64,000 bases of DNA from contig RFTN01000004.1 in the NCBI GenBank assembly GCA_009923445.1, positions 66,438-130,437 on the forward strand, read 5' to 3'. Each line of letters opens with the position of its first letter. Position 1 is the stretch's first letter. This stretch comes from a bacterium (GTDB taxonomy: Bacteria > Patescibacteriota > Saccharimonadia > Saccharimonadales > SZUA-47). Positions 47,000-62,956 of this stretch are shown here, piece by piece. Under the pieces are notes generated by a model. That model was given only the letters and a program-made list of their open reading frames with translations, searched no databases and was not told the origin of the DNA. The position numbers were made by a program, and so were the translations under genes.

Positions 47000-47075
47000 A
47001 GGAGTGTAGCTCAGCTGGTAGAGTACCGGTCTCCAAAACCGATGGTCGCAGGTTCGATCCCTGTCACTCCTGCCA
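47000..47075 (+). tRNA. tRNA-Trp (anticodon CCA), CCA tail encoded
   Basis: Acceptor AGGAGTG/CACTCCT, anticodon loop CTCCAAA, T-arm GCAGG-TTCGATC-CCTGT. Confidence 0.9.
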
Positions 47076-47104
47076 TATAGGACGAATCAGCTTTTTAAGC
47101 TCTA

Positions 47105-47132
47105 GAAGACCTCTGTTATTGGGGTCTTTTTT
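47105..47132 (+). terminator. rho-independent terminator downstream of tRNA-Trp
   Basis: AGACC...GGTCT hairpin followed by TTTTTT. Confidence 0.6.
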
Positions 47133-47146
47133 AGTGGTTTGGTTTC

Positions 47147-48643: not shown

Positions 48644-48809
48644 TGCTGTCGCCCTCAGCCAATACCTCAAACAAAGATAATAATGATGTAGCTATCTCTT
48701 CAGTCTCAGCATCGCTAAATTTTCTGTTTTGTTGGCTCTCAAGAATACACCTTAGTTGTTCTACGGAGTTATCTACTTCACTAGTTGTACCCTCAGAAAG
48801 TGCATTCAT
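48630..48809 (-). CDS. small acidic hypothetical protein (59 aa), possible recombinase accessory factor
   Basis: One residue below the track cutoff. Hand translation MNALSEGTTSEVDNSVEQLRCILESQQNRKFSDAETEEIATSLLSLFEVLAEGDSNDEQ. It overlaps the recombinase start. Confidence 0.3.
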   Translation of the reverse strand: MNALSEGTTSEVDNSVEQLRCILESQQNRKFSDAETEEIATSLLSLFEVLAEGDSNDEQ

Positions 48810-49043
48810 AACTATCCTTACAAGGATAATTATACTATCCTTTGACGGATAGTTTCAAGTAGTTATTAGTATTTTTAGCGATAAAGTTATCCACAAGAAC
48901 TACGTATATCGATATAAGTAGTATATACTGCATTTAACAGATACAAACATACATTATTATTCTCTCTCTATTATATATACATATAAGGTAGAAAAAAGAA
49001 GAAGCAATGTCAGTACAAAAGATCAATCAATAGACGTACAATC

Positions 49044-49808
49044 ATGAAAGACAGAAAACCCTCATTACTCCAAGTAGAACTACTCAAGCTCCTATACAAG
49101 TTCCGTTTCGCTACAGCCCCATTACTAGCCATACATAAACAAAAAGGTATCGTTACTATTACTCAGTCTCTTAAAACGTTACTAGATAAAAAGTACATAG
49201 CCAGAAACTATACTCCATCATACAAACTAGCTGGTAGAGGTGCAGAATACTATCTCACTAATGATGGGATTCGTTATTTGCGTGATAACTACAAAGTTAA
49301 CGAGGCCGTTCTTCACTCCATGTACAAAAACAAAACTATCGGCCAGCCCTTTATCCAAAAGTGCCTGCTTATTTACCATCTATATATAAAGATCCAAAAG
49401 CAGTATCCAGATACTTTCACTATTCTCACAAAAGCCGAACTTGCCGGTAGCGACGACTTTCCGGAGCCATACCCAGATCTCTATATCTATAACGATCAAA
49501 ACGACTACATGCTAGATATCTTTAGCGATAGCCTCTTCTATCTCATCAAGAAGCGTATAGACCAACTTATTAAGCATCATGAATCTGGCGATTGGCCAGA
49601 GGAAACTTACCCTACACTACTGCTTGTATTGGCCGACAGCCGTATAGAGGCTAAAACACAGGCATATGTCGAGAAAGTTAAAGACGATAACTATATTGAA
49701 GATGCTGAGTTACGAATCCTCACCACAACTCTAAAAGTGTTAGCAGAAGGCGCCGGATCAAATATCTGGTCAGATGGAAAAGATAAAACACCAGTTTCCC
49801 TAGAATAG
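49044..49808 (+). CDS. replication-relaxation family protein (Replic_Relax-like)
   Basis: N-terminal winged-helix-like LLQVELLKLLYKFRFATAPLLA and a later PDLYIY...MLDIF pattern, as in this plasmid/ICE family. Confidence 0.6.
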   Translation: MKDRKPSLLQVELLKLLYKFRFATAPLLAIHKQKGIVTITQSLKTLLDKKYIARNYTPSYKLAGRGAEYYLTNDGIRYLRDNYKVNEAVLHSMYKNKTIGQPFIQKCLLIYHLYIKIQKQYPDTFTILTKAELAGSDDFPEPYPDLYIYNDQNDYMLDIFSDSLFYLIKKRIDQLIKHHESGDWPEETYPTLLLVLADSRIEAKTQAYVEKVKDDNYIEDAELRILTTTLKVLAEGAGSNIWSDGKDKTPVSLE

Positions 49809-49831
49809 TCGCTGAGGAGTATACTCTGCTT

Positions 49832-51040
49832 ATGGATATGTTCCGCAATATTTTAAATAAAAACGACACTGTTAAAGAATCTTCTGAGTGGAAACTACCA
49901 TCAATCGATCTTTTGAGTAAAAACGAAAAAATTATAGATCAAGATACTACTGAAGAACGTTCTAAGCTCATTACAGATGCGGTGCTAGTGATGAATACCA
50001 TTAAGGATTACGGTTGTGATGTTGAGCTTGAGCATGTCACATCTGGCCCTAGACTTAACGTGTATCGGTTTAAACCGAAAGTTGGTAACTCAGTAAAAGA
50101 CCAAAAAGAACTAGCCAGAAATATCTCTCAGGCACTCGACACTAACACTGTGCGGGTATTTGTTGAAAACAAAGACAATGCTCGCATACAGATAGAGGTA
50201 ACGCGCAATACACCTACATTTGTTTCGTTAAGAGAGATGCTCGAGTCTCGACAATTTACTGATAGTGAAGCAAAACTTCCGATAGTTATTGGGCTGGATG
50301 TTGCTGGTGTGCCAATAGTTGAAGACCTAACCAAGATGCCTCACATGCTCATCTCTGGCCAAGTAGGATCTGGCAAATCTACTTTCCTTAACTCTCTTAT
50401 CATGAGTTTGCTATATACAAAGAGCCCTGACGAGGTAAAACTAATTCTAGTAGATCCAAAATGGGTTGAATTCACGGTATACAACGATATCCCTCACCTA
50501 TTAACGCCGGTTATAAATGCCCCAGAAGACTGGAATAAGGCTAGTAATTGGTTACTTGAGGAGATGGAACGCCGTTTTGTAACACTAGCAAACAGTAGAA
50601 CAAAAAACATTGAAGAATATAACGCCAAAGCTGAAGTACGAATGCCCTATATCATTATGGTGAATGACGAGTTTGCTGACTTAATGATGCTGGACGGCGA
50701 AGCAACAGAAAAATTAGTTGTAGAGTTAGCTCAAAAATCTCGAGCCGTTGGTATTCACCTTGTAATTGCAACACAGCGTCCAAGTGTCGATGTAATTACC
50801 GGGATGATTAAAGCCAACATCCCATCTAGAGTTGGTTTAACGACTGCTAGCAAAGTAGATAGCCGTACAATTATTGATCAAGAAGGTGCCGAGAAACTCC
50901 TTTCTAAAGGCGATATGTATTATTCCAATTACCAGATGCCAAAACCCGAACGCATGCAGGGCGCACTTATTACAGACGAAGAAGTCATTAAAGTAACTGA
51001 TTATCTTAGGTCTAAAAGTTCGCCTGTCTATGTTATCTAG
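49832..51040 (+). CDS. FtsK/SpoIIIE-family DNA translocase (TraB/conjugative type)
   Basis: Walker A GQVGSGKST, Walker B IIMVNDEFADL and ATQRPSVDVITG. It has no N-terminal membrane domain. Confidence 0.88.
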   Translation: MDMFRNILNKNDTVKESSEWKLPSIDLLSKNEKIIDQDTTEERSKLITDAVLVMNTIKDYGCDVELEHVTSGPRLNVYRFKPKVGNSVKDQKELARNISQALDTNTVRVFVENKDNARIQIEVTRNTPTFVSLREMLESRQFTDSEAKLPIVIGLDVAGVPIVEDLTKMPHMLISGQVGSGKSTFLNSLIMSLLYTKSPDEVKLILVDPKWVEFTVYNDIPHLLTPVINAPEDWNKASNWLLEEMERRFVTLANSRTKNIEEYNAKAEVRMPYIIMVNDEFADLMMLDGEATEKLVVELAQKSRAVGIHLVIATQRPSVDVITGMIKANIPSRVGLTTASKVDSRTIIDQEGAEKLLSKGDMYYSNYQMPKPERMQGALITDEEVIKVTDYLRSKSSPVYVI

Positions 51041-51168
51041 AAAAGTACTTAGTAGAATCTACGATCTAATTGAAAATATACTAGTTAAACTTGCGTGGCT
51101 ATATGGGTACGTTGAAGGCTGGGTGCGTCGAGATTAGAGCAGTTTTAAGTCTTACTCAGGACTAATAA

Positions 51169-51474
51169 CTACCAGCGCGGGATATCACCAACCTGCGTTG
51201 GCTTAAAATGAATGTCCCGCTCTACCTTGAGTCCAAACGGTCCTTCAATACTCTCTAGCTCTTGAAGTGAGAAGTAACCAAACTCTGCATCAAGACCCTT
51301 CACGAATCCGAAGCATTGGTTCTCACCATCAAACTCGATAACGTACCATGTCCAGTTACTCCATGGTGTGAAGAACTTAGCATGGATGATCTTGTCTTCC
51401 ATCTCTACATCTTCCGTCTCATACAACTTTGGTATGTTTGCTAGATCAGCGTTAGTTAGTAATGATGAATTCAT
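51169..51474 (-). CDS. DUF2958-family protein
   Basis: MNSSLLTNADLANIPKLYETED...KFFTPWSNWTWYVIEFDG...FGFVKGLDAEFGYFSLQELE...ERDIHFKP. ATG 51474 follows AAGGAGG. The long N-terminal extension in the track is rejected. Confidence 0.75.
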   Translation of the reverse strand: MNSSLLTNADLANIPKLYETEDVEMEDKIIHAKFFTPWSNWTWYVIEFDGENQCFGFVKGLDAEFGYFSLQELESIEGPFGLKVERDIHFKPTQVGDIPRW

Positions 51475-51696
51475 TGCAGCCTCCTTTGGCATTTCTTTAT
51501 TAACGCCGATGGAAGCACGGCATAGGTTCTGGCTTGGCAAGGTGGAGATGCCCCATAAGACAACCAAACTTATCAATAATGTCTTATGGGCGAATACTAC
51601 CTTACCTAGTCTGGTTCTATGCGTACACTGAGAAGGCATAAGAAAGAAAAAACTATATTTCGGTTTACTGGGGAAAAAGTTCTATAATATACAATA

Positions 51697-54600
51697 ATGG
51701 CGTTAATTGATAACAAAGAGAAAACACTACAAGAAGCATTGAAGAATGCCTTACCCAATGTAGAGTCGGTTGATATCTTAACGGCCTACTTTTATTTTTC
51801 TGGCTTTTCTGCCTTAGCAGATGAACTTAAAGACAAGAAAATACGCATACTTGTAGGCAAAGCAATTGATCCGAATGCGGTTGATGATTTAAGCGCTGCC
51901 ATGAAACATGATCCAAATGTTAGCTTGGATGCGTTTCAGAACCGTAAGTATGTCAGTCTTAGCCAAACTCAAAAACAATCGGAGTATACCGAAAGCTTTA
52001 TACGACTTTTCAATAAATCTGCATTGTCTGAAGCTTTTGATGGAACTAGAGACCAATATATGCAGAAGATCTTTGAAGATAAGCTTCGTGACGGTTCACT
52101 TGAAATTCGAATGACAAATGAAGCAAATCATGCAAAAGCGTATATCTTGACGAATAAACAAGAGTTTTCTCAGGGTGGCGACTACAAGGGTAACGTGTTC
52201 ATGGGATCATCTAACTTTACTTATAGCGGTTTGGTCGGCCAAGGTGAACTAAATGAATCTCATCGAGATAACGACAACTACGATAAGTACTCTAAGCACT
52301 TTAGTAATTTATGGAACGATTCAAACGCTATCGATATCCAAGTAAAAGATACTCCAGACTCCGAAGATAGTTTCTTGAATAAAATCCAGAAACGTCTATG
52401 GATACATTCAACACCTGATCCATATAAGATTTTTATTCGAGTTCTACATGAAATTTATGCCGAGCTAGAAGACGAAGATGTAAAAACACCCTCCTCCATA
52501 ACTGGCGGGAAATTCACTAATCTAAAATACCAACTCGACGCTATTAGATCAGGCATAGACTGTGTAAATAAAAATAATGGCGTGATCATAGCCGATGTGG
52601 TTGGTCTCGGTAAATCCGTGATTGCATCAGCGATCGCGCACAACTTAGAAATGTCCACGATAATTATTACCCCTCCACACCTCAAGTCTCAATGGCAAGA
52701 TTACGCAACACGATTCAAGATACCTGGTGCTCACGTTGAGAGTGGTGGAATGATACGGCACCTACACGAGCACTATGCAAAGGATAGTGAGCCAAAACTT
52801 TACATCATAGACGAGGCTCATCGTTATAGAAACGAACTTACAGACGACTACCAATGGCTCCATCAATTAACACGCTCTAATGCAAATAATAAAGTCTTAT
52901 TATTGACGGCAACTCCCTATAACAATAGGCCCCAAGACCTGTTTGCTATGGTAAAACTTTTCCAAACACCAAGTCGCTCAACTATTAATTCTGTAGACAA
53001 CCTTGGTCTTCGTTTTGACGATTTAATCGTAAAATATCGTAAACTTGAAAAAATTGGTAAAAAAAACCTGTCAGAAGAAGTTAAAGGAGAGCTACAGAAG
53101 CTAAGCAACGAACTTCGTTTACTCATCGAGCCTATTGTAATTCGTCGTTCGCGTATAGATCTTAAAGAAATTAAAGAGTACGCCGACGATCTAAGAAACC
53201 AAAATATTGAATTTCCAGAAATCGTAGGTCCAGAATTAGTGGAATATGATCTAGGTAATATTCGTCAGCTTTACATTCAAACACTTGAAAAACTTACTGA
53301 TACAGAAAATGGTTTTAACGGAGCGCGTTACCAGTCGGCTTCATACATTAAAGATCGTGATACGTTTATAGAGAAATACGGGGATTTCTTTGATGATTCA
53401 GATCTTAAGACCGCTCAGGCCAACTTGGCATTCTTTATGCGCCGATTACTTGTACAGCGCTTCGAGAGCTCAAAGTATGCCTTCCAAACTACATTAGATA
53501 ATATGATTCGTTCTCACGAGATAATCTTAAAATGGTGGGATAAAGGCTATGTCCCTATCCGAAAAAAAGAGGGTCTTATAGATCCGGACGAACTGGAAGA
53601 ATTTGATAGCATTGATGCTATAAATGATTTAATTGAGAGTGGCGAAGAAATAGACGCTGAAGCTATTAAAAAGGTAGCCCTAACGATACCGAGAGATCTA
53701 TTTGAAGATACCTTTGCTTTACTTGTGAAAGATGACCTCGCCTTGTTAGAAGAAATTAAGCATAGCTGGTTCTCTAATGGAATTACGGGAGATGACCCAA
53801 AACAAGTCCGAACCGAACAAAAAATACGAGAGTTACTTGATGAAAACCCTAATAGAAAAATCGTAATATTTTCAGGTTACGCTGACACTGCTGAGTACGT
53901 AGCTAAAAATCTTAGAGAACACGGGCTAGACAGAACACTACTATATACAGGCTCATCCACTAATGAGCTGAAAAAAGTTGTGTCTGAGAACTTTGACGCA
54001 TCGTATGATGGAGACCATAAAAATGATTACGATATTGTTGTTGCGACGGATGCTTTAAGTGAAGGATTCAACCTTCACCGGGCGGGTATCGTTATTAATT
54101 ACGACATACCCTACAACCCAACTCGTGTCGTTCAACGTATCGGTAGAATTAACCGTATAAACCAAAAGATGTTTGATAAAATCTATATTTACAATTTCTT
54201 CCCAACAGATGTCGGTGAAGGTGTTGCGAATGTTAAGGGCATAAGCACGCTAAAGATGCTTCTTATTAACAATATAGTTGGTAGCGACACTCGAACGCTT
54301 ACGCCGGATGAAGATCTAAAGAGTTATTTCAAAAGTACATATAACGATGCAGATAGTGCTAATAGCGAACGGTCGTGGGATAACGAATACCGCAATATAT
54401 ACAATGCAGTTAAACATGATCATAACCTCCTAAAAGAAGTCTTGAATATACCAGAACGAACTCGTATAGTTCGCAACGGACGACCAAATAATGTATCTAT
54501 ATCGTTTGCACGGCGTGGCAATGGAATTCTGTTCGCACTAGCCGGTGAATATGATTCAGAAGCGGAGATTGTGTCGCCGGAATTTGTATTACCTTACTTT

Positions 54601-54999
54601 AAGGCCAGTAGCGATGAAAAATCACACGAAGGCGATGCAGCATTAGATAGCAAATTTGAAATACTACGAAAACGCATTACAGCTCCTCACCCACTACCAA
54701 AAATTCAAGGACGCAGAGCTGACGCATTAAAGATAATTGAAGCCCTGAAAGAAGTGTATTCACCAGAGCGTAACTACCTTACTGATCTGTATGATGCTAT
54801 TCGAGAGTTCGATGACTTATCAAACGGAGAGCTTAAATACATTGCCCAAATAAGACTCGATGAAAATAATCTAGGTGAAGCCGTCCATGAACTTAGACAG
54901 AAGTTTACCCCACATTATTTGGGAGTTATTAAAGAGAAGGCAGAAGCAATCGATAGTGTATCGGAAATAATCATGTTCACGGAAGACTTGCGTAAATGA
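51697..54999 (+). CDS. PLD-nuclease-domain / SNF2-family helicase fusion protein (1100 aa)
   Basis: A single HKD motif (NHAKAYILTN...GSSNFTYSG) in the N-terminal part of the protein. SNF2 motifs follow: DVVGLGKS (I), IIDEAHRYRN (II), LLLTATPYNN (III), ATDALSEGFNLH (V), QRIGRINR (VI). Confidence 0.85.
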   Translation: MALIDNKEKTLQEALKNALPNVESVDILTAYFYFSGFSALADELKDKKIRILVGKAIDPNAVDDLSAAMKHDPNVSLDAFQNRKYVSLSQTQKQSEYTESFIRLFNKSALSEAFDGTRDQYMQKIFEDKLRDGSLEIRMTNEANHAKAYILTNKQEFSQGGDYKGNVFMGSSNFTYSGLVGQGELNESHRDNDNYDKYSKHFSNLWNDSNAIDIQVKDTPDSEDSFLNKIQKRLWIHSTPDPYKIFIRVLHEIYAELEDEDVKTPSSITGGKFTNLKYQLDAIRSGIDCVNKNNGVIIADVVGLGKSVIASAIAHNLEMSTIIITPPHLKSQWQDYATRFKIPGAHVESGGMIRHLHEHYAKDSEPKLYIIDEAHRYRNELTDDYQWLHQLTRSNANNKVLLLTATPYNNRPQDLFAMVKLFQTPSRSTINSVDNLGLRFDDLIVKYRKLEKIGKKNLSEEVKGELQKLSNELRLLIEPIVIRRSRIDLKEIKEYADDLRNQNIEFPEIVGPELVEYDLGNIRQLYIQTLEKLTDTENGFNGARYQSASYIKDRDTFIEKYGDFFDDSDLKTAQANLAFFMRRLLVQRFESSKYAFQTTLDNMIRSHEIILKWWDKGYVPIRKKEGLIDPDELEEFDSIDAINDLIESGEEIDAEAIKKVALTIPRDLFEDTFALLVKDDLALLEEIKHSWFSNGITGDDPKQVRTEQKIRELLDENPNRKIVIFSGYADTAEYVAKNLREHGLDRTLLYTGSSTNELKKVVSENFDASYDGDHKNDYDIVVATDALSEGFNLHRAGIVINYDIPYNPTRVVQRIGRINRINQKMFDKIYIYNFFPTDVGEGVANVKGISTLKMLLINNIVGSDTRTLTPDEDLKSYFKSTYNDADSANSERSWDNEYRNIYNAVKHDHNLLKEVLNIPERTRIVRNGRPNNVSISFARRGNGILFALAGEYDSEAEIVSPEFVLPYFKASSDEKSHEGDAALDSKFEILRKRITAPHPLPKIQGRRADALKIIEALKEVYSPERNYLTDLYDAIREFDDLSNGELKYIAQIRLDENNLGEAVHELRQKFTPHYLGVIKEKAEAIDSVSEIIMFTEDLRK

Positions 55000-57900
55000 T
55001 ACTTAATGAACCATACAGCAAGGAATCTTTTGAGGAATTCTTAAAAGTTTTCTTGCCCGATTACCAAAAAGATGAGCGCAAGGTACGAACCCCGGACAGT
55101 TCCATTCTTACTGAAGTCAATCAACTGGGAATTTCTCGTGCTGTCAATGTAACCGTTCTAGAAGCTGAATGCGAAGAAACAGACACTAATAGACGTATCG
55201 CCATCACACAAGCGGCGTTTAAGGTTTTGCGCGATCACAGCATACGCAACGCAATAATTGCCTTTCACGATGGCGATGATCAATGGCGTCTGTCATTGCT
55301 TACTTCATCTTTATACATCAAGGACGGTCAAGTTGTTAAAAAAGACAGCAACCCTCGTCGCTACTCATATTTACTGGGCCCTGATGCAAAGACTGCAACA
55401 CCATATAAGTATCTTATAAAAAATGGAAGGGTTACAGATTTTGAGGATTTACAAGGACGATTCTCAATAGAAGTTGTAAACAAGGAGTTCTACAGCTCTA
55501 TAGCCGAACTCTATACTAAACTTATTGGCGGTAAACGTAAAAAAGGTAGCAGCTTAATTGAGTATCAAGGATTGCTTAGAATAAAAGGAGAGGTAAATCA
55601 GTCTTTAGAGCATCAGGAGTTTGCTGTTAGGCTCATCGGTAGACTTGTCTTCTGCTGGTTTCTTCGCGAGAAAAAAAGTGCTAAAGGTACTTCTTTGATT
55701 CCAGACACTATCTTGTCTGCAAAAGCAGCCCAAAAGGACCAGTATTACCATACAGTACTAGCCCCACTTTTTTTTGAACTGCTTAATCAACGGCCTGCTA
55801 TGCGCAAAGATCCTTTCAAAGAGTATCCGCACTCCATGATCCCATATCTTAACGGTGGACTTTTCAGCCCTCAGAAAGGCGAAAGTGGAGATTACTATGA
55901 ATATAGCGAAGCTACAAAGGGGGCTACACTAGGCTTAGTCGATGTACCTGATTCCTGGTTGAAGGAATTTACTGAGCTACTAGAAACCTATAATTTCACA
56001 GTCGACGAAAACACATCATATGACGCTGATCTTTCTGTAGACCCAGAGATGCTTGGTAGAATTTTTGAAAATCTCTTGGCGGAGATCAACCCTGAAACCG
56101 GAGAAAGTGCACGCAAGAGCACGGGTAGTTTTTATACACCTCGTGAGATTGTTGAGTATATGGTTGACCGAAGCCTCGTTTGTTTTTTGGCGCAGAGAAC
56201 CAATATAGAGACAAAAAAACTCGAAGCATTAGTTAGTTATGGTATAGAAGACGATGTCGAGTTTCAGCGTACATTAGATGAGGAAAAAGCTATAGTAGAT
56301 GCTCTAGCAAACTTCACAATATTAGATCCGGCTTGCGGGTCAGGTGCTTTTCCTATCGGCATATTACAGAAGGTAGTATACATACTACAACAAGTAGACA
56401 AAGAGGCTAGGCACTGGTTAGAGAGGCAGCTTAAGGGTGTATCCCCAGAGCTCAGGAGGCATCTTGAACAACAATACGAAGATCAAAATTACGATTATCT
56501 CAGAAAGCTTGGCGTAATTAGGGAAAGTATTTTCGGTGTCGATATCCAGCCTATTGCTACAGAGATAGCGCGACTCCGTTGTTTCTTGACTCTGATTGTG
56601 GAGGAAGAAGTGGATGACGAGGCGCCTAATAGGGGTATTCAACCATTACCAAATCTTGATTTTAAGTTTGTTAGTGCCAACTCTTTAGTTCATCTTCCGG
56701 TAAACGACATCCAAAATAAGGCAAAACAACAACAGATATTTGAAGATTCAACTCACATCGACGAACTTAAAGAGATACGAAACAAGTACTTTGGTGCAAA
56801 TTCAATAGAGAGGCTAGAGCTACAGAGTGAGTTTAATGCTCTACAGACTGAGATGGCTCTTAAAAATGTTGATGAATACAAGGGAGCGGCATCTGAACTC
56901 TACAACTCTCTGACTCGCTGGAAACCATTTGAGCACAGTATGGTTGGCTGGTTCGATGCGGAATGGATGTTTGGTATAGATAAATTTGATGTAATTATTT
57001 CTAACCCACCGTGGGGCGCAAAGCTAACCGCTGATGAAAAGATGATCCTTAAAAGTACATATCCTTCAATCGACTCTTCAACCCCTAACTCATTTGCATA
57101 TTTTATTGGTCTTGCACTACAACTGAACGCACAGGTCCTTACTTACGTGCTACCTGATAGCATAATGACGAAGGACTACGCTAAGACCCGTGCACTTCTA
57201 CGGCCATTTCTGACTAACTTAAACTGGTATCAAAATTCTGGAGTCCCAGAAAAATTTAGGCCATTCATATACGTTGAGCACGATGTATGCGTTATGGTTG
57301 CAACTCAAGAATTGAGTGACGAGGTGCATTATTGTAGGTATGATTACATCCCTACTAAAATAATCAAAAACGAATGGATTGCCAGTAAAGAAGTAACTAT
57401 AAGACCCGCTTTTGAATACGTCTTTAATTTATTAGCAACTGATGATGACTATAAAATTCTGGATAAACTTACTAAGCACGAGCCTTTAAGCATTAAATTG
57501 CAATGTCACGAGGGCATTCATACGGGTAACAGTAGAGATATACTCTTTAGTAAAGAAACCAAGGGTAACTTTAAACCATTATTCTACGGCGGGGGTGCAG
57601 GAGACACTATCGATGACTATGTCTCTCAGACAAGTGGATGGTTTGTCGATTATCGCTCAGAAATAGTTAGTAAGAGTGAAGGTAATTATGCATCTCTTCG
57701 AGATGAGAGGATATTTTCAAACCCAAAACTGTATGTCACTAGAACAGGAAACCCTTTGAAGGTCTTTCTTGATGAAGGAACATATGCTTCTAACAACTTT
57801 TTCTCACTACAGCTTAAAGATTATTCTAAAAACAGCGTGGAAGAGTTAAAATTAATCCTACCTTTCATCAACTCTAGAATTGCACAATATTTTATCAGAA

Positions 57901-58154
57901 CTTTTGCCGCACCACGAATTGGCTCTACGTTTATAGAGACGAAAATAATGCATTTACTAAAACTTCCAGTTCCCGTGCTTGATGGTAGTAATAGAGAGGA
58001 ACTACTAAAATTGGTAGATCAGGCGATTGACAGCAAGAGAAGCAGATCGACCAATGACTTCAGTGCAATCAATGAGAAGATCCAAATGTTTATATATAAT
58101 GCTTACGGCCTAACTCCAGCAGAAATCCAGCTAATCGAGGAGTCTACAAAATGA
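54996..58154 (+). CDS. Eco57I/PglX-like gamma-class N6-adenine DNA methyltransferase with C-terminal target-recognition region (1052 aa)
   Basis: SAM motif ILDPACGSGAFP, catalytic IISNPPWG, and a C-terminal LNSRIAQYF-type TRD segment. ATGA overlap with the upstream helicase gene. Confidence 0.85.
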   Translation: MILNEPYSKESFEEFLKVFLPDYQKDERKVRTPDSSILTEVNQLGISRAVNVTVLEAECEETDTNRRIAITQAAFKVLRDHSIRNAIIAFHDGDDQWRLSLLTSSLYIKDGQVVKKDSNPRRYSYLLGPDAKTATPYKYLIKNGRVTDFEDLQGRFSIEVVNKEFYSSIAELYTKLIGGKRKKGSSLIEYQGLLRIKGEVNQSLEHQEFAVRLIGRLVFCWFLREKKSAKGTSLIPDTILSAKAAQKDQYYHTVLAPLFFELLNQRPAMRKDPFKEYPHSMIPYLNGGLFSPQKGESGDYYEYSEATKGATLGLVDVPDSWLKEFTELLETYNFTVDENTSYDADLSVDPEMLGRIFENLLAEINPETGESARKSTGSFYTPREIVEYMVDRSLVCFLAQRTNIETKKLEALVSYGIEDDVEFQRTLDEEKAIVDALANFTILDPACGSGAFPIGILQKVVYILQQVDKEARHWLERQLKGVSPELRRHLEQQYEDQNYDYLRKLGVIRESIFGVDIQPIATEIARLRCFLTLIVEEEVDDEAPNRGIQPLPNLDFKFVSANSLVHLPVNDIQNKAKQQQIFEDSTHIDELKEIRNKYFGANSIERLELQSEFNALQTEMALKNVDEYKGAASELYNSLTRWKPFEHSMVGWFDAEWMFGIDKFDVIISNPPWGAKLTADEKMILKSTYPSIDSSTPNSFAYFIGLALQLNAQVLTYVLPDSIMTKDYAKTRALLRPFLTNLNWYQNSGVPEKFRPFIYVEHDVCVMVATQELSDEVHYCRYDYIPTKIIKNEWIASKEVTIRPAFEYVFNLLATDDDYKILDKLTKHEPLSIKLQCHEGIHTGNSRDILFSKETKGNFKPLFYGGGAGDTIDDYVSQTSGWFVDYRSEIVSKSEGNYASLRDERIFSNPKLYVTRTGNPLKVFLDEGTYASNNFFSLQLKDYSKNSVEELKLILPFINSRIAQYFIRTFAAPRIGSTFIETKIMHLLKLPVPVLDGSNREELLKLVDQAIDSKRSRSTNDFSAINEKIQMFIYNAYGLTPAEIQLIEESTK

Positions 58155-58624
58155 AGGGTATGGATAATGGAAAAACTGAACTTACATCACTCCTATCCGG
58201 TGTAGCAGGTGAATATTTTGTAGCTGCTGAGCTTTCAAGGAGGGGTTATTTAGCTTCTATTACACTGAGAAATACAAAAGGAGTGGATATACTTTGCTCC
58301 AACTCTGATGCCACAAAGACTGTAGCCATCCAAGTAAAAACAAATAGAAGGTCAAATCGTGAGTGGGTTCTAAACCAGAAAGCGGAATTCTTCTATGCCG
58401 ATAATCATTTTTATGTATTCGTTAATCTGCACAATAATAAACAGCAACCAGATTACTTTATTGTGCCTAGCAAAGTAGTAGCAACTTACGTAAAAGAGAC
58501 ACATGCAGCTTGGCTTGCAGCACCTGGCAAAGCTGGCCGAGCGCATATAGATACTACTATGCGTAAGTTCGCTGACCTTAGCGAAGAGTATAGGAATTGC
58601 TGGGATAATCTAGGTTTAAATTAA
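58151..58624 (+). CDS. small PD-(D/E)xK-like protein (157 aa), putative nuclease
   Basis: GEYFVAAELSRRGY...GVDILC...VAIQVKT spacing resembles the E...D...(E/Q)xK restriction-endonuclease-fold core. ATGA overlap with the methyltransferase gene. Confidence 0.45.
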   Translation: MKGMDNGKTELTSLLSGVAGEYFVAAELSRRGYLASITLRNTKGVDILCSNSDATKTVAIQVKTNRRSNREWVLNQKAEFFYADNHFYVFVNLHNNKQQPDYFIVPSKVVATYVKETHAAWLAAPGKAGRAHIDTTMRKFADLSEEYRNCWDNLGLN

Positions 58625-58628
58625 ACGC

Positions 58629-60107
58629 ATGCAGTTATCTAAGTCAGAATACATGATGTTCTTGAAGCACCCTGCATGGCTGTGGCTTAAAAAACACGAT
58701 AAATCCAAACTCCCACCAATCGACGATAACACTCAGGCTGTGTTTGATGCTGGAAATATGTTTGAAGGCTATGCAGAGAAGCTATTCCCTGAAGGTATCA
58801 GACTTGGTTTTAGTGATTATAGTGAATATCAATTGCTTCCCCAGGCGACAACGAAAGCTATTAAAGACGGCAATAAGACCATATTTCAAGGTAGGTTTGA
58901 GTACGAGAGTATTACTTGCATCTGTGACGTTGTACAGTTTATAGACGGTAGCACTGTAGATCTATACGAAATAAAGTCCAGTACAAAAGCCAAGCCTGAA
59001 CACCATCTAGACCTTGCGTTCCAGATGGTCGTATTAGAGGGCAATGGTTACGAAGTACGTAATATTGAGGTAATCCACGTTAACAATCAGTACGTACGTA
59101 ATGGCGATGTTAAAGCAGAGGATATTGTAGCTAAAACTAACGTAACTGATAAAGTTAAAAATAAAAGAGATTTTACAGTTCAAAAGATAGCCGAAGCCGT
59201 AAAGATGCTCGAAGACGGTGATCACCCAGATTTTTCTCCATTCTTGGCTGGCGACAATGGCGCATTTGCCGAGTGGCTAGAAATATATAAACACCTATAC
59301 CCACAAGATAAGGGAAGTATTTATGATTTATGCAGGCTGGACTCAACGACTCTTAAGAACTTAATAGATTCTGGTATTGAGCGTATTGTAGATATTCCTG
59401 AAGACTTTGCACTTAAACCGGTACAGGCGCTTCAGGTAGAAGCTACAAAGCTTGGGCATCCTATAATTCACAGTGACAAAATTAAAGCATTTCTAGATGA
59501 ACTTGTGTTCCCGCTGTATTTCTTTGACTACGAAACACTGATGAGTATAGTGCCTTACTTTGACGGCGTAAGACCATACCAACAACTTCCATTCCAGTAT
59601 TCATTGCATATTCTAGAATCTCCGGATGCTGAGCTTAGACACAAAGAATACCTACATACCGTTAATTCCAACCCAGCTCATCCCCTATCACAGAAATTGC
59701 ACGATGATATTGGGACACAAGGCACAGTACTTGTTTGGTATGAAAGCTTTGAAAAGTCACGTAATAGCGAGCTTGGAGAGTTACTTCCTGAATTTAAAGA
59801 GGCGTTTAAAGCATTAAACGGACGAGTTGTAGACTTAATCGCTCCATTCTCTAAAGGTTGGTACGTTGATAAAGACTTCAAAGGAAGTGCATCGATAAAG
59901 GATGTTTTACCTGTGCTTGTTCCTGAATTGTCATACAAAGTTCTTGGCATACAAGAAGGAGGATCTGCTCAAAGATTATGGATGGAAGCAGTACTAGATG
60001 GTAAGCGCGCAGATGAAAAAGAAAAGATCCTCAGCGACCTGCTTGAATACTGCAAGCTAGATACTTTGGCTATGGTCAAAATATATAACGTACTAAGAAA
60101 GTTATAG
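58629..60107 (+). CDS. DUF2779-type protein: Cas4-like PD-(D/E)xK N-terminal half plus RNase-H-like C-terminal half
   Basis: LSKSEYMMFLKHPAWLWL N-terminus and a D...DLYEIKSS nuclease core. The C-terminal half has LYFFDYETLMSIVPYFDGVRPYQQLPFQYSLH and YCKLDTLAM, as I recall for DUF2779. Confidence 0.65.
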   Translation: MQLSKSEYMMFLKHPAWLWLKKHDKSKLPPIDDNTQAVFDAGNMFEGYAEKLFPEGIRLGFSDYSEYQLLPQATTKAIKDGNKTIFQGRFEYESITCICDVVQFIDGSTVDLYEIKSSTKAKPEHHLDLAFQMVVLEGNGYEVRNIEVIHVNNQYVRNGDVKAEDIVAKTNVTDKVKNKRDFTVQKIAEAVKMLEDGDHPDFSPFLAGDNGAFAEWLEIYKHLYPQDKGSIYDLCRLDSTTLKNLIDSGIERIVDIPEDFALKPVQALQVEATKLGHPIIHSDKIKAFLDELVFPLYFFDYETLMSIVPYFDGVRPYQQLPFQYSLHILESPDAELRHKEYLHTVNSNPAHPLSQKLHDDIGTQGTVLVWYESFEKSRNSELGELLPEFKEAFKALNGRVVDLIAPFSKGWYVDKDFKGSASIKDVLPVLVPELSYKVLGIQEGGSAQRLWMEAVLDGKRADEKEKILSDLLEYCKLDTLAMVKIYNVLRKL

Positions 60108-60216: not shown

Positions 60217-60252
60217 TTGAATATATTTACGCTACTAGCGTATAATTATACG
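60217..60252 (+). promoter_or_regulatory. promoter with overlapping palindromic operator candidates for the lexA-like operon
   Basis: TTGAAT (60217-60222), 18-nt spacer, TATAAT (60241-60246). Palindrome TACGCTA-C-TAGCGTA at 60228-60242 and perfect 14-bp palindrome CGTATAATTATACG at 60239-60252. The ATG is at 60257 with no SD. Confidence 0.55.
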
Positions 60253-60256
60253 TATT

Positions 60257-60871
60257 ATGAGTTTAGAGGGTCTAACACCAAAACAGAAAACCGTGTTTGC
60301 AGCAGTGCGAGAGTTGCAAACTGTTACTGGTCGGATGCCGACACTAGATGAAATACGCCGTCATCTTGGGTATGCCACCGTCAGCTCCGTGCAAAGACAT
60401 ATGGATGCACTTAAGCGTAAGGGCTACATTCAATCCGAAAAGCACCAGAGCCGTACGATGAAACTTGTTCATCAACATTTAGCCAGCATTCCACTTGTTG
60501 GTAACGTGGCCTGTGGCGCACCTCTATTAGCTGAAGAAAATATCGAAGCCTATGTAGCCTACGATGCCGACTCTTTGAAGGGTGCATCAGAAGATTACTT
60601 TTTCCTGCGCGCAATCGGCGATAGCATGAACAAAGGCGGAATAGACGATGGCGATCTAGTACTTGTTAGAAAATCAGATACCGCTGAACCTGGCAAAAGG
60701 ATAGTGGCGCTAGTGGGAGATGATGCAACCGTAAAGAAGCTGGCGCAAGACGATGGCCATTGGATTCTCCGCCCTGAGTCGACTAATCCAAAACACAAAG
60801 ATTTAATCATGGCAGAAGAGTTTGCCATCCAAGGCACAGTCTATGCCGTCGTGAAAGCTGAGCAATTGTAA
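60257..60871 (+). CDS. lexA: LexA-type repressor (winged-HTH plus S24 self-cleaving peptidase)
   Basis: LTPKQKTVF...MPTLDEIRRHLGYATVSSVQRHMDALKRKGYI DNA-binding domain. IPLVGNVACGAPLLAEENIE cleavage-site region, GDSM catalytic Ser and TVKKL Lys. Collinear with E. coli LexA. Confidence 0.9.
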   Translation: MSLEGLTPKQKTVFAAVRELQTVTGRMPTLDEIRRHLGYATVSSVQRHMDALKRKGYIQSEKHQSRTMKLVHQHLASIPLVGNVACGAPLLAEENIEAYVAYDADSLKGASEDYFFLRAIGDSMNKGGIDDGDLVLVRKSDTAEPGKRIVALVGDDATVKKLAQDDGHWILRPESTNPKHKDLIMAEEFAIQGTVYAVVKAEQL

Positions 60872-61602
60872 TGAGCCATGCGACGAACATGGACAACATA
60901 CGATCTATGTTGAACGATTCATACACTAAGGAAGACACGAGTACAATTCCAAAAAGAACGGATTTAACATTTGGTAATACCCTTAAGAAAATCAAGCATA
61001 CTGTGGTCTTCTACGTAGACATGAGGGGATCAAGAAAGATAATCCAAGATTCGACCAGTTTTATGAGCGTCAAAGTACACCGTTCTTTTCTTCAAGCAAT
61101 TACATACTGCGTAGAAAATAGAGGTGGTCACTTTCGTAGTTTTAATGGAGACGGTGCTCTAGCATTTTTTGTTGGCGATAACGACTCAACAGATGCCGTT
61201 AAGGCAGCATTGGATTTGAAAAGTTACGTCATGGAAATGAACACTATTCTAGAAGACAAAATCTCCAAGAAAGTAGATTTTGGCGTTGGCATTGGTCAAG
61301 GAGCAATTTACGTCGCTAAGAGTGGCAAGAAAGGTGATGACAGTACCAAGCAAGACCTCGTATGGGTAGGTTTGCCTGTGTATGTTTCTGTTGAACTAAG
61401 CGATTATGCAAGATCTAGCAACAATATATGGATTAGTCCTGCAGTAAAATCTTCTCTAGATAAACAAGGTGACAAGTTTGTGCTAACAGACGACAAGGAC
61501 GGTAGCAGTATCTGGACTAGGGAGACTAAGAATCTGAAGTCCCTAGGAGAAACCTCAGTTTATAAAACATCATATTACAGCACCCTAAAGTTGAGCCAAT
61601 AA
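60871..61602 (+). CDS. class III nucleotidyl cyclase homology domain protein (Pycsar PycC-like), copy 1
   Basis: VVFYVDMRGS (metal Asp 1), FNGDGALAFF (metal Asp 2), and FGVGIGQGAIYVAKSG...LVWVGLPVYVSVELSDYA (the transition-state/purine-pocket region of the fold). TAATG overlap with lexA. Confidence 0.7.
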   Translation: MSHATNMDNIRSMLNDSYTKEDTSTIPKRTDLTFGNTLKKIKHTVVFYVDMRGSRKIIQDSTSFMSVKVHRSFLQAITYCVENRGGHFRSFNGDGALAFFVGDNDSTDAVKAALDLKSYVMEMNTILEDKISKKVDFGVGIGQGAIYVAKSGKKGDDSTKQDLVWVGLPVYVSVELSDYARSSNNIWISPAVKSSLDKQGDKFVLTDDKDGSSIWTRETKNLKSLGETSVYKTSYYSTLKLSQ

Positions 61603-62438
61603 TGAAACCAGTCAATGACATCTATTCTGATCTAAAAGTAAATGCCGATTACAGATATGATAATTTTCGAATTGAAGAGATTGGTTCGATTAAGCGCATT
61701 GCCGAAGATTCTTATTTAGAAGCACCAGTGTGGGTTGGCGGTGATGCCAAGTTTGTATGTCTTTTCATCGATTTAGATAACTCATCTAAGATGTCGTTTA
61801 AGAAGCACCCTAAAACAATGGCTAAAATATACGATTACTTTACTCAAACACTGATTGATGTACTTTCACAAGAAGGCATTGAAGCTGATTATATCGACAT
61901 TAAAGGTGATGGTGCATTTGGTATTTTCGAAGGCGATAACGCATCATTTCGTGCACTTTCTGCTGCCCTAACATTCGGAACTTTCTTCAAGAAATATATA
62001 CGACCAAAATTTCAAGACGACGAACATGTCTTTAACTTTAAATCGGCAATTCATACCGATAAATTACTTGTTAAGCGCATAGGTAAACGAGGCTCGAGAA
62101 ATAATAATGAGGTTTGGGCAGGTCGACTTGTTAATAATTCTTCCAAACTAGCAACTCTATCAAAGGAAATATATGATATCGACCGAGACTTTAACCCGTC
62201 TACCGGCGGAGTGCTGGTTATTTCTGAACCGATATACCAGATATACAGGACAAAGCATGAGTTTGCCATTATGCACTGCGGACATGACCTTTCTGGTAAT
62301 CCACAGCCACGATCAGAACTATGGAGAAGAATAGATACTAGTAACTACGATTACGTGCATGACGATGTAGCGTATTATGCTCCAGGTCTTTGGTGTGACA
62401 TCTGTCAAGATACGGTCAATGAAGGGTTGCTAGCGTAA
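61602..62438 (+). CDS. class III nucleotidyl cyclase homology domain protein, copy 2, with Cys/His-containing C-terminal extension
   Basis: VCLFIDLDNSS, IKGDGAFGIFEG, and FKSAIHTDKLLVKRIG...EVWAGRLVNNSSKLATLS. The C-terminus has HCGHD...CDIC. TAATG overlap on both sides. Confidence 0.65.
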   Translation: MKPVNDIYSDLKVNADYRYDNFRIEEIGSIKRIAEDSYLEAPVWVGGDAKFVCLFIDLDNSSKMSFKKHPKTMAKIYDYFTQTLIDVLSQEGIEADYIDIKGDGAFGIFEGDNASFRALSAALTFGTFFKKYIRPKFQDDEHVFNFKSAIHTDKLLVKRIGKRGSRNNNEVWAGRLVNNSSKLATLSKEIYDIDRDFNPSTGGVLVISEPIYQIYRTKHEFAIMHCGHDLSGNPQPRSELWRRIDTSNYDYVHDDVAYYAPGLWCDICQDTVNEGLLA

Positions 62439-62956
62439 TGGCTCTTGATAAGATATCGATATACGAAAAGAACCTTACTCGTATACATGAGTGGATTAGG
62501 GCTGTTGATCAAAAATTAAGCGTTCTCATGGCAATACAAGGTGTGTACATCGTCTTTATCACTCCACTGTTTCTATCGCTACTATCAAGAAAATACCTGC
62601 ATGTAGGAAGTCTACTAGCTGCAGGTATACTAGTATCTTATGCCGTGCTGGCCTACGGGTTGCTAAAGTGTTTCATATCATTGTATTCAAGCCTAAAAGT
62701 AAAAGGTCAGTCGGTTACTGAAGACCAGTTGTCGTTAACCTACTTCAACCACATTGAAAAGATGACTCTTGAAAATTATAAGAAGAAAATGCGATCACTA
62801 ACATCAAAAAAGTATGACGATGAATTATTGACACAAATTCACACCTCATCAACCATTGCCACAAAGAAACACAGACGCTTTAATGATGCCCTATTCCTGT
62901 TTATAGTTGGCGCTTTGCTCTCTGCAATTACACTGTGCTTTTTATATCTAATCTAA
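62438..62956 (+). CDS. small three-helix membrane protein, candidate cyclic-nucleotide-activated effector (PycTM-like)
   Basis: N-terminal amphipathic segment with AVDQKLSVL. Hydrophobic helices at about residues 28-50, 56-82 and 150-172, and a soluble helical insert between helices 2 and 3. Confidence 0.55.
   Translation: MALDKISIYEKNLTRIHEWIRAVDQKLSVLMAIQGVYIVFITPLFLSLLSRKYLHVGSLLAAGILVSYAVLAYGLLKCFISLYSSLKVKGQSVTEDQLSLTYFNHIEKMTLENYKKKMRSLTSKKYDDELLTQIHTSSTIATKKHRRFNDALFLFIVGALLSAITLCFLYLI

What the first reader, a model, noticed from the sequence alone, without database searches (positions are those of the whole stretch)
60871..62438. Two divergent cyclase-homology genes in tandem suggest a heterodimeric cyclase; the second has a Cys/His-rich tail
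Class III cyclases are head-to-tail dimers with active sites at the interface. Described Pycsar cyclases are, as far as I recall, single-gene homodimers. Here two clearly different CHD proteins (243 and 278 aa) are translationally coupled. Both keep the two metal-binding aspartates (VDMRGS/NGDGA and IDLDNS/KGDGA). They differ in the substrate-pocket region (GIGQGAIYVAKSG versus AIHTDKLLVKRIG). Copy 2 adds a tail of about 55 aa with HCGHD...CDIC, a possible metal or ligand site. This suggests an asymmetric heterodimer with one catalytic and one regulatory pocket, as in mammalian AC C1/C2 or Rv1625-type pseudo-heterodimers. That arrangement would be new for a defence cyclase.
Basis: partly seen in the sequence, partly recalled or inferred. 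Interest (0 to 1): 0.7.

Follow-up and report, generated by a model that had tools for sequence, protein, structure and literature searches.

The report
Pycsar defence operon with two cyclases
This is a known type of anti-phage system (Pycsar: a cyclase makes a cyclic pyrimidine that switches on a membrane-killing protein) that carries two different cyclase genes instead of one, a recurrent but apparently undescribed layout whose purpose (two sensors or one mixed enzyme) is still open.

Summary
Four genes are joined by TAATG stop/start overlaps: an S24/LexA-type repressor (60257-60871), cyclase 1 (243 aa), cyclase 2 (278 aa) and a PycTM effector (62438-62956). Both cyclases are Pycsar PycC proteins with confident class III cyclase folds and are about 25% identical to each other.

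Cyclase 2 belongs to published clade D, the uridylate cyclases typified by AnPycC. Its Cys/His tail is that clade's known, functionally required zinc ribbon, so it is not a new ligand site.

The two-cyclase layout is neither chance nor decay. It recurs in more than 25 loci from several phyla and in three plasmids of cultured Actinobacteria, in every gene order. I found no paper describing it, but the founding Pycsar paper could not be read.

The heterodimer idea remains unproven.
- For it: the cyclase 1 family has replaced the transition-state Asn and Lys/Arg with Tyr171 and Glu175, and every partner it pairs with keeps them.
- Against it: both families also occur alone with PycTM. Lone cyclase 1 genes are 86-91% identical to paired ones. 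Partners are swapped between lineages. Both proteins keep both metal-binding aspartates.

My best reading is two self-sufficient sensor-cyclases feeding one effector (about 0.5). An asymmetric heterodimer is about 0.33.

The parts
60217..60246 (+). Promoter-like site (TTGAAT, 18 nt spacer, TATAAT). A perfect palindrome TACGCTAcTAGCGTA at 60228-60242 lies between the hexamers and overlaps the -10 box. It is a candidate operator for the LexA-like repressor. The ATG follows only about 10 nt after the -10 box.
   Evidence: The promoter scan matched 10 of 12 positions. The sequence was read directly. The palindrome occurs once in the window, and 33 of 100 shuffles also give at least one match, so statistical support is weak.
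60257..60871 (+). LexA-type repressor (204 aa): an N-terminal LexA DNA-binding domain plus an S24 self-cleaving peptidase domain. It is the first gene of the operon. It has a Cys-Gly candidate cleavage site (VACGAP) and candidate Ser (GDSM) and Lys (VKKL) catalytic residues.
   Evidence: Pfam Peptidase_S24 E 2.8e-25 and LexA_DNA_bind E 2.5e-13. The motifs were read from the translation. S24 genes recur next to related Pycsar loci.
60871..61602 (+). Cyclase 1 (PycC, 243 aa, called family G1 here). It has metal-binding Asp50 and Asp94. Tyr171 and Glu175 stand where class III cyclases have the transition-state Asn and Arg/Lys. It has no zinc ligands.
   Evidence: PADLOC PycC E 5e-49. The best PDB sequence match is 7r65 BcPycC, E 2e-16. 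AlphaFold2 pLDDT is 91.1. Foldseek gives 7r65 at E 4e-19, TM 0.82/0.87. Motif tables are, and family conservation.
61602..62438 (+). Cyclase 2 (PycC, 278 aa, clade D-like). It has metal-binding Asp57 and Asp103. Phe55, Lys101 and Phe106 match the UTP-pocket residues F60, K104 and F109 of AnPycC. Asn178 and Lys182 are retained.
   Evidence: PADLOC PycC E 1.6e-60. The best PDB sequence match is 8jsz AnPycC, E 1e-24. AlphaFold2 pLDDT is 89.8. Foldseek gives 8jsz at E 5e-17. Invariant columns are listed, residue numbering, and the AnPycC residues come from PMC11224242.
62277..62405 (+). C-terminal zinc-ribbon region of cyclase 2: Cys226-Gly-His228 ... Cys265-x-x-Cys268.
   Evidence: It aligns with the SCGC...WCPIH region of AnPycC. 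C226 and C265 are invariant in 106 homologues. PMC11224242 shows that the AnPycC ribbon binds zinc and is needed for activity.
62438..62956 (+). PycTM effector (172 aa, predicted membrane protein). It is the only effector gene in the operon.
   Evidence: Pfam PycTM E 2.6e-11. PADLOC PycTM E 2.4e-30.

Best explanation
The locus is a Pycsar abortive-infection operon (repressor, PycC, PycC, PycTM) carried on an integrative element next to tRNA-Trp.

Cyclase 2 is a clade D zinc-ribbon uridylate cyclase and is predicted to make cUMP. Cyclase 1 belongs to a second PycC family whose product is unknown.

The most likely mechanism is that the two cyclases are separate sensor-enzymes. Each forms its own head-to-tail homodimer, each can drive a PycTM effector alone, and they were combined as modules. 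Infection cues seen by either cyclase then raise the cyclic nucleotide that opens the single PycTM effector and kills or arrests the cell. This is an OR gate that widens the range of phages detected. It is comparable to Thoeris operons with several ThsB sensors and one ThsA effector (from my own knowledge of the Thoeris literature).

Shown: the identities and folds of the proteins, their catalytic residues, and the recurrence and modularity of the pairing.

Inferred: the products, the oligomeric states, the OR-gate logic, and repressor control of the operon.
For: Both families work in two-gene form elsewhere. Copy-1 relatives sit alone with PycTM in 12 loci with enough flanking DNA, often inserted between hsdS and hsdR of type I restriction systems. 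Copy-2 relatives sit alone with PycTM in L068 and L066. According to PMC11224242, AnPycC plus AnPycTM defends E. coli by itself.

Lone copy-1 proteins are 91% (L037) and 86% (L041) identical to paired ones. Nucleotide homology between those lone and paired loci begins 4-15 nt before the copy-1 start codon, so the second cyclase behaves as an add-on or removable module. In L035 the second cyclase looks frameshifted.

Partner families are swapped across the copy-1 tree (G5, G4, G3 or G2), and every gene order occurs, including with PycTM between the two cyclases.

No alignment position separates lone from paired copy-1 proteins. All families keep both metal-binding aspartates, and the copy-2 catalytic residues are invariant in lone and paired members alike.
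Against: By the classical class III rule, metal-binding aspartates come from one protomer and Asn plus Arg/Lys from the other. A copy-1 homodimer with Tyr171 and Glu175 should therefore be a poor enzyme, yet this substitution is at least 90% conserved.

Every partner found next to a copy-1 protein carries the canonical Asn and Lys.

The genes are translationally coupled. AnPycC is a monomer in solution, so the choice of dimer partner may be flexible (PMC11224242).

No activity, interaction or phage data exist for this locus.
Confidence: 0.5

Rival explanations
1. Asymmetric heterodimer. Cyclase 1 acts as a C1-like half and supplies Asp50 and Asp94. Cyclase 2 supplies Asn178, Lys182 and the UTP-reading residues Phe55, Lys101 and Phe106. 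This gives one canonical cUMP-forming site. The second pocket (cyclase 2 aspartates facing cyclase 1 Tyr171 and Glu175) is degenerate and may bind a regulator or a phage cue.
For: Tyr171 and Glu175 (and Leu168 where others have Arg or Lys) replace the Asn and Lys/Arg helix motif in the whole copy-1 family. All of its partners (G5, G4, G3, G2) keep that motif.

Two actinobacterial plasmid pairs also have one altered partner: pAO1 cycB has Asn replaced by Ser, and M. arabiense cyc1 has Lys replaced by Asn.

The junction between the two genes is TAATG. Pairs are always divergent, at most 43% identical. Distances between copy-1 proteins and between their partners are correlated (Mantel r 0.77, p about 5e-4). 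AnPycC is monomeric in solution.
Against: Twelve loci have a copy-1 protein and PycTM with no second cyclase nearby. A profile built from all the cyclases found no hidden partner, and the upstream ORFs there are HsdS, MrcB-like and similar proteins. The lone proteins are up to 91% identical to paired ones.

Cyclase 2 has lost nothing, so it does not need a partner. Partner families are exchanged and gene order is not fixed. G2+G5 pairs and the Rhodococcus pair have both members canonical.
Confidence: 0.33
2. The two cyclases make different nucleotides, for example cUMP from cyclase 2 and another cyclic mononucleotide from cyclase 1. The system then signals through two messengers or resists phage enzymes that destroy one of them.
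For: The residues at the base-selecting positions differ. Cyclase 1 has Tyr48, Asn92 and Leu97. Cyclase 2 has Phe55, Lys101 and Phe106. BcPycC has Tyr50, Asp94 and Arg97. The abstract of a 2026 preprint reports Pycsar-related cyclases that make cGMP (the full text was not readable).
Against: There is only one effector gene. The product of cyclase 1 cannot be predicted from sequence. According to PMC11224242, clades A to D are all reported to make cUMP.
Confidence: 0.12
3. One copy is a non-catalytic regulator or a remnant. Cyclase 1 has lost chemistry and only modulates or senses, or the pair is a leftover of two merged Pycsar systems after one effector was lost.
For: Key catalytic residues are substituted in cyclase 1. 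The second cyclase is lost or frameshifted in some relatives.
Against: Both proteins are full length. Their metal-binding aspartates and many other columns are invariant across more than 100 homologues each. Copy-1 proteins are the only cyclase in many intact two-gene systems.
Confidence: 0.05

Closest known systems
Canonical two-gene Pycsar (PycC + PycTM or PycTIR; Tal et al. 2021, as summarised in PMC11224242 and PMC9117128)
   Same: It has class III-type PycC cyclases next to a PycTM effector, sits among other defence genes, and is predicted to signal with a cyclic pyrimidine and act by abortive infection.
   Different: There are two divergent PycC genes for one effector. An S24/LexA-type repressor gene is translationally coupled at the front of the operon.
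Clade D PycC, AnPycC (PDB 8jsz; PMC11224242)
   Same: Cyclase 2 shares the fold, the metal-binding aspartates, the Phe/Lys/Phe UTP-pocket residues, and the C-terminal zinc ribbon with four ligands in the same places.
   Different: The ligand chemistry is permuted: Cys-x-His ... Cys-x-x-Cys here against Cys-x-Cys ... Cys-x-x-His in AnPycC. Identity is about 28%. AnPycC was studied as the only cyclase of its system.
Clade A PycC (PaPycC, PDB 6YII): two cyclase domains fused in one chain
   Same: Two non-identical cyclase-homology domains belong to one defence system, so an asymmetric pair is conceivable.
   Different: Here they are two separate genes from two different PycC families, not a fusion. 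Neither window protein matched 6YII in the sequence searches.
Heterodimeric class III cyclases (mammalian adenylyl cyclase C1/C2; soluble guanylate cyclase alpha/beta)
   Same: There are two different cyclase-homology polypeptides. Cyclase 1 keeps the metal-binding aspartates but lacks the Asn and Arg/Lys pair, like a C1-type half.
   Different: The expected reciprocal loss is missing, because cyclase 2 keeps everything. Both families also occur without a partner. No interaction has been shown.
Thoeris operons with several ThsB sensors and one ThsA effector (from my own knowledge)
   Same: Several divergent paralogous sensor/signal-producing genes share one effector, and their number varies between related operons.
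   Different: The enzyme family (TIR rather than cyclase) and the signal are different.
Phage lambda cI-rexA-rexB (from my own knowledge)
   Same: An S24-family repressor gene is co-transcribed with an abortive-infection module on an integrated mobile element.
   Different: The defence proteins are unrelated. Whether the repressor here maintains the element or only regulates the operon is unknown.

Membership tests
Pycsar system | A cyclase of the class III cyclase-homology fold (PycC) | tested here: met
   Both proteins match PADLOC PycC models (E 5e-49 and 1.6e-60). Their best structural matches are the solved PycC structures 7r65 and 8jsz.
Pycsar system | An adjacent effector of the PycTM or PycTIR type | tested here: met
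   The ORF at 62438-62956 matches Pfam PycTM at E 2.6e-11 and PADLOC PycTM at E 2.4e-30.
Pycsar system | Synthesis of cCMP or cUMP, and protection against phage | not testable with these tools
   This needs enzyme assays and phage challenge.
Clade D PycC (zinc-ribbon uridylate cyclases) | C-terminal zinc ribbon with four Cys/His ligands | tested here: met
   C226, H228, C265 and C268 align with AnPycC C221, C223, C260 and H263. C226 and C265 are invariant in 106 homologues. Zinc binding itself was not tested.
Clade D PycC (zinc-ribbon uridylate cyclases) | Conserved UTP-pocket residues (AnPycC F60, K104, F109) and metal-binding aspartates (D62, D106) | tested here: met
   Cyclase 2 has F55, K101, F106, D57 and D103.
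Clade D PycC (zinc-ribbon uridylate cyclases) | Placement inside clade D of the published PycC tree | not tested
   The reference tree and sequences of Tal et al. 2021 were not available. The clade of cyclase 1 (closest solved relative is clade B BcPycC) also remains unassigned.
Heterodimeric class III cyclase (C1/C2-type) | Two different cyclase-homology polypeptides expressed together | tested here: met
   The genes are adjacent with a TAATG junction and the proteins are 25% identical.
Heterodimeric class III cyclase (C1/C2-type) | Complementary loss of catalytic residues in the two halves | tested here: inconclusive
   Cyclase 1 lacks the Asn and Lys/Arg pair (it has Y171 and E175), but cyclase 2 keeps both the aspartates and the Asn and Lys. 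The pattern is one-sided.
Heterodimeric class III cyclase (C1/C2-type) | Obligate co-occurrence of the two subunits | tested here: not met
   Twelve loci have copy 1 alone and at least two have copy 2 alone. Lone copy-1 proteins are 86-91% identical to paired ones.
Heterodimeric class III cyclase (C1/C2-type) | Physical heterodimer with a shared active site | not testable with these tools
No multimer predictor is available.
Clade A PycC (fused double cyclase) | Two cyclase domains in one polypeptide | tested here: not met
   There are two separate ORFs in different reading frames.
LexA / S24 self-cleaving repressors (upstream gene) | A winged-helix DNA-binding domain plus an S24 peptidase domain with a Ser/Lys dyad | tested here: met
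   Pfam LexA_DNA_bind E 2.5e-13 and Peptidase_S24 E 2.8e-25. GDSM and VKKL motifs are in the translation. Cleavage itself was not tested.

The most novel reading that the evidence does not exclude
Cyclase 1 is a C1-like half-enzyme: it keeps the metal-binding aspartates but has Tyr and Glu in place of the transition-state Asn and Lys. It would pair with the complete zinc-ribbon cyclase 2 to form the first two-gene, asymmetric heterodimeric defence cyclase. That enzyme would have one canonical cUMP site and one degenerate pocket that could act as the phage-sensing or regulatory site. The many two-cyclase Pycsar operons, including those on plasmids of cultured Actinobacteria, would then form an unrecognised heteromeric subtype.
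Probability: 0.3. Interest if true: 0.7.

Novelty: new variant of a known kind. Interest (0 to 1): 0.45.

Why it matters
How Pycsar cyclases sense infection is still unknown. A natural and widespread layout with two different cyclases and one effector offers a direct experimental handle.

If the cyclases act separately, deleting each one should reveal phage-specific triggers. If they form a mixed dimer, the degenerate pocket is a candidate sensor site.

The Tyr/Glu replacement of the transition-state residues in a whole PycC family, which also occurs as the sole cyclase of many systems, raises a separate enzymology question.

Practically, annotation tools that expect one PycC per system will not flag this subtype. 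Testable examples exist in cultured strains, such as pAO1 of Paenarthrobacter nicotinovorans.

Tried and rejected
Only monomer models were made.
- Literature: Tal et al. 2021, the Slavik and Kranzusch review and the 2026 'Pucsar' preprint are not held. Six full-text searches found no description of a two-cyclase or heteromeric Pycsar. One further search was badly specified and useless. I therefore cannot rule out a mention in the founding paper or its supplements.
- A hidden second cyclase in the 'lone' loci: a profile built from all the cyclases found none. The tightly linked upstream ORFs turned out to be HsdS, MrcB-like, DUF5677, EcoRI methylase and similar proteins, not partners.
- Positions that distinguish lone from paired copy-1 proteins: none were convincing.
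- Mirror-tree test: distances are correlated, but this fits co-inheritance under either model and does not discriminate.
- The palindrome in the promoter as a repeated operator: only one copy in the window, and it is not statistically unusual.
- Pfam alone would have missed the cyclases.
Full report
WHAT IS THERE

The region holds four + strand ORFs: 60257-60871 (204 aa), 60871-61602 (243 aa, 'cyclase 1'), 61602-62438 (278 aa, 'cyclase 2') and 62438-62956 (172 aa). Each junction reads TAATG, so the stop codon of one gene shares a base with the start codon of the next. A promoter-like site (TTGAAT, 18 nt, TATAAT; 60217-60246) lies just before the first ATG. It contains a perfect palindrome, TACGCTAcTAGCGTA, at 60228-60242. 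That palindrome occurs only once in the window and is not statistically unusual.

IDENTITIES

The first gene encodes a LexA-type repressor (LexA_DNA_bind E 2.5e-13, Peptidase_S24 E 2.8e-25). The last encodes a Pycsar membrane effector (Pfam PycTM E 2.6e-11; PADLOC PycTM E 2.4e-30).

Both middle genes match PADLOC PycC models, but different ones: PDLC02367 at E 5e-49 for cyclase 1 and PDLC02369 at E 1.6e-60 for cyclase 2. Against solved structures, cyclase 1 is closest to BcPycC (7r65, E 2e-16). Cyclase 2 is closest to the Anabaena uridylate cyclase AnPycC (8jsz, E 1e-24).

AlphaFold2 models built on 114 and 106 homologues are confident: pLDDT 91.1 with pTM 0.89, and pLDDT 89.8 with pTM 0.88. 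Foldseek returns the same two structures first, followed by classical class III adenylyl and guanylyl cyclases.

The two proteins are 25% identical over 135 residues, and their family profiles align with 97.6% probability.

THE CYS/HIS TAIL

PMC11224242 reports that clade D PycC enzymes carry a conserved C-terminal zinc ribbon, with ligands C221, C223, C260 and H263 in AnPycC. Mutating it abolishes cUMP synthesis and phage defence.

Cyclase 2 aligns with AnPycC through this region. It has C226-G-H228 and C265-x-x-C268 at the matching places. C226 and C265 are invariant in 106 homologues.

Cyclase 2 also has the clade D pocket residues: F55, K101 and F106, matching AnPycC F60, K104 and F109. 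Its metal-binding aspartates are D57 and D103. The tail is thus a known feature, and cyclase 2 is predicted to be a uridylate cyclase.

The profile alignment suggests that cyclase 1 keeps a remnant of the same C-terminal sub-domain without the ligands.

IS THE PAIR RECURRENT?

I scanned species-representative genomes and metagenomes with a cyclase 1 profile and looked up contigs encoding cyclase 2 relatives. This gave 70 loci. Their cyclase ORFs cluster into five groups:
- G1: the cyclase 1 family.
- G5: the cyclase 2 family.
- G4 and G3: two other long, zinc-ribbon types.
- G2: a second short type.

The pairings found were:
- G1+G5: the window, L015, L046, L051, L069.
- G1+G4: ten loci.
- G1+G3: four loci from Solirubrobacterales.
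- G1+G2: L005/L030 and L044.
- G2+G5: L060, L062, L064, L070.

Every gene order occurs, including with PycTM between the cyclases. About 20 of about 32 informative G1 loci, and 5 of 7 looked-up G5 relatives, have a second cyclase.

Their identities to the window proteins are 74-83% for cyclase 1 and 64-81% for cyclase 2. Both genes are therefore maintained in this sub-clade.

RefSeq plasmids of cultured Actinobacteria carry the same theme, annotated as two 'adenylate/guanylate cyclase domain-containing' genes plus a 'Pycsar system effector'. They are pAO1 of Paenarthrobacter nicotinovorans, which also has a third, long cyclase facing the operon, M. arabiense pJCM18538, and a Rhodococcus plasmid.

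The arrangement is widespread and is neither chance nor decay.

EVIDENCE BEARING ON A HETERODIMER

For it. In class III cyclases one protomer gives the two metal-binding aspartates. The other gives the base-reading residues, the transition-state Asn and the Arg/Lys (established enzymology of adenylyl cyclase C1/C2). All five groups keep both aspartates. G2, G3, G4 and G5 keep the W-x-G-(R/K)-x-x-N-x-x-x-K helix motif, as do BcPycC and AnPycC.

G1 alone has Leu168, Tyr171 and Glu175 at these three places, and Tyr171 and Glu175 are at least 90% conserved. Every partner of a G1 protein has the canonical motif.

Two actinobacterial pairs also have one altered member: pAO1 cycB has Asn replaced by Ser, and M. 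arabiense cyc1 has Lys replaced by Asn. AnPycC is a monomer in solution and a dimer only in crystals, so mixed pairing is conceivable.

Against it. Twelve loci with ample flanking DNA have G1 and PycTM and no second cyclase. A profile of all the cyclases finds no hidden one. The tightly linked upstream genes there are HsdS, MrcB-like and similar proteins, meaning the cassette often sits inside type I restriction operons.

Lone G1 proteins in L037 and L041 are 91% and 86% identical to paired ones. Nucleotide homology with the paired loci starts 4-15 nt before the G1 start codon, and the long cyclase of L035 appears frameshifted. No alignment position separates lone from paired G1 proteins.

Long cyclases also occur alone (L068, L066), and AnPycC with AnPycTM defends by itself. 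Partner type changes across the G1 tree: G1 proteins 57-62% identical to the window's carry a G3 partner only 27-29% identical to cyclase 2. Cyclase 2 has lost no catalytic residue, so the complementarity is one-sided.

VERDICT ON MECHANISM

It is secure that this is a Pycsar system with two intact, divergent cyclases, one PycTM effector and a co-transcribed S24 repressor.

I favour two self-sufficient sensor-cyclases feeding one effector (about 0.5). This resembles Thoeris operons with several ThsB genes. The always-divergent pairs could even reflect selection against cross-dimerisation between the two paralogues.

An asymmetric heterodimer, with cyclase 1 as the aspartate donor and cyclase 2 as the Asn/Lys and base-reading donor, remains a serious rival (about 0.33). 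The main reason is the G1 Tyr/Glu substitution.

That substitution is puzzling under either model, because G1 is the sole cyclase in many systems. A conserved insertion in the beta4-beta5 arm (GDDxTKQD; K160 and Q161 invariant) may supply substitute residues. That is my inference only.

CONTEXT

The operon lies at the end of a probable integrative element. In order, the element contains:
- tRNA-Trp at 47000-47075;
- a serine recombinase, Replic_Relax, FtsK/SpoIIIE and DUF2958 genes, then a PLD-SNF2 helicase;
- a type IIG-like methyltransferase;
- a DUF2779/Cas4-like gene.

S24 repressor genes recur beside related Pycsar loci (L015, L005/L030, L066/67). In L008 and L046 the LexA-S24 module is fused to an N6/N4 DNA methyltransferase and faces away from the operon. 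The layout recalls lambda cI-rexAB. Whether the repressor maintains the element or makes the operon damage-inducible is unknown.

NOVELTY

I found no paper in the searchable library that describes two-cyclase or heteromeric Pycsar systems. The founding paper and its tables could not be read.

Fused two-domain PycC (clade A) and the clade D zinc ribbon are already published. I rate the finding as a new variant of a known kind with moderate interest. It would rise if the heterodimer is confirmed.

Noticed in passing
window 60871-61602 (residues 168-175), and all G1 loci: The whole cyclase 1 family has Leu, Tyr and Glu where other PycC proteins and classical class III cyclases have Arg/Lys, the transition-state Asn, and Arg/Lys. 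Yet this family is the only cyclase in many two-gene Pycsar cassettes. It may use substitute residues from a conserved GDDxTKQD insertion.
   Followed up: partly
window 60217-60871: A LexA/S24 repressor gene is the first, translationally coupled gene of the Pycsar operon. A perfect 7-1-7 palindrome (60228-60242) sits inside its promoter-like site, and the ATG follows about 10 nt after the -10 box, so the transcript may be leaderless.
   Followed up: partly
L008 3563-5092 (-) and L046 1783-3483 (-): These are single proteins of 509 and 566 aa that fuse a LexA DNA-binding domain, an S24 peptidase domain and an N6/N4 DNA methyltransferase. They are encoded divergently from two-cyclase Pycsar operons.
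   Followed up: partly
window 47000-60107: This looks like an integrative element beside tRNA-Trp. It carries a serine recombinase (47147-48670, - strand), Replic_Relax, FtsK/SpoIIIE and DUF2958 genes. Its defence cargo includes a PLD-SNF2 helicase (51697-54999) overlapping a 1052-aa type IIG-like methyltransferase (54996-58154), a 157-aa ORF of unknown function (58151-58624) and a DUF2779/Cas4-like protein (58629-60107).
   Followed up: partly
L006, L031, L033, L041, L069: Pycsar cassettes, with one or two cyclases, sit inside type I restriction-modification operons. They lie directly after hsdS (L006, L031, L033), after a ResIII-helicase gene (L041), or, in L069, between hsdS plus a PIN-domain gene and hsdR.
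   Followed up: partly
L071 (pAO1, NZ_CP089294.1 19271-22372): The classic nicotine-catabolism plasmid pAO1 carries three cyclase genes around one PycTM gene. Two are short paralogues 43% identical to each other, one of which has the catalytic Asn replaced by Ser. The third is a convergent long zinc-ribbon cyclase annotated only as hypothetical.
   Followed up: partly
L035 31-836: The long cyclase upstream of the G1 gene is split between two reading frames. This is either a frameshifted pseudogene or an assembly error. The G1 and PycTM genes are intact.
   Followed up: no
L066/L067 3163-5996: This is a variant operon: S24 peptidase, DUF1508 (60 aa), cyclase 2 relative, PycTM, and then two small ORFs (125 and 92 aa) of unknown nature where other loci have the second cyclase.
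   Followed up: no
L064/L065 1-626: A gene with Viral_Rep and RNA_helicase domains lies a few kb from a cyclase-PycTM-cyclase operon on contigs of 22-84 kb.
   Followed up: no
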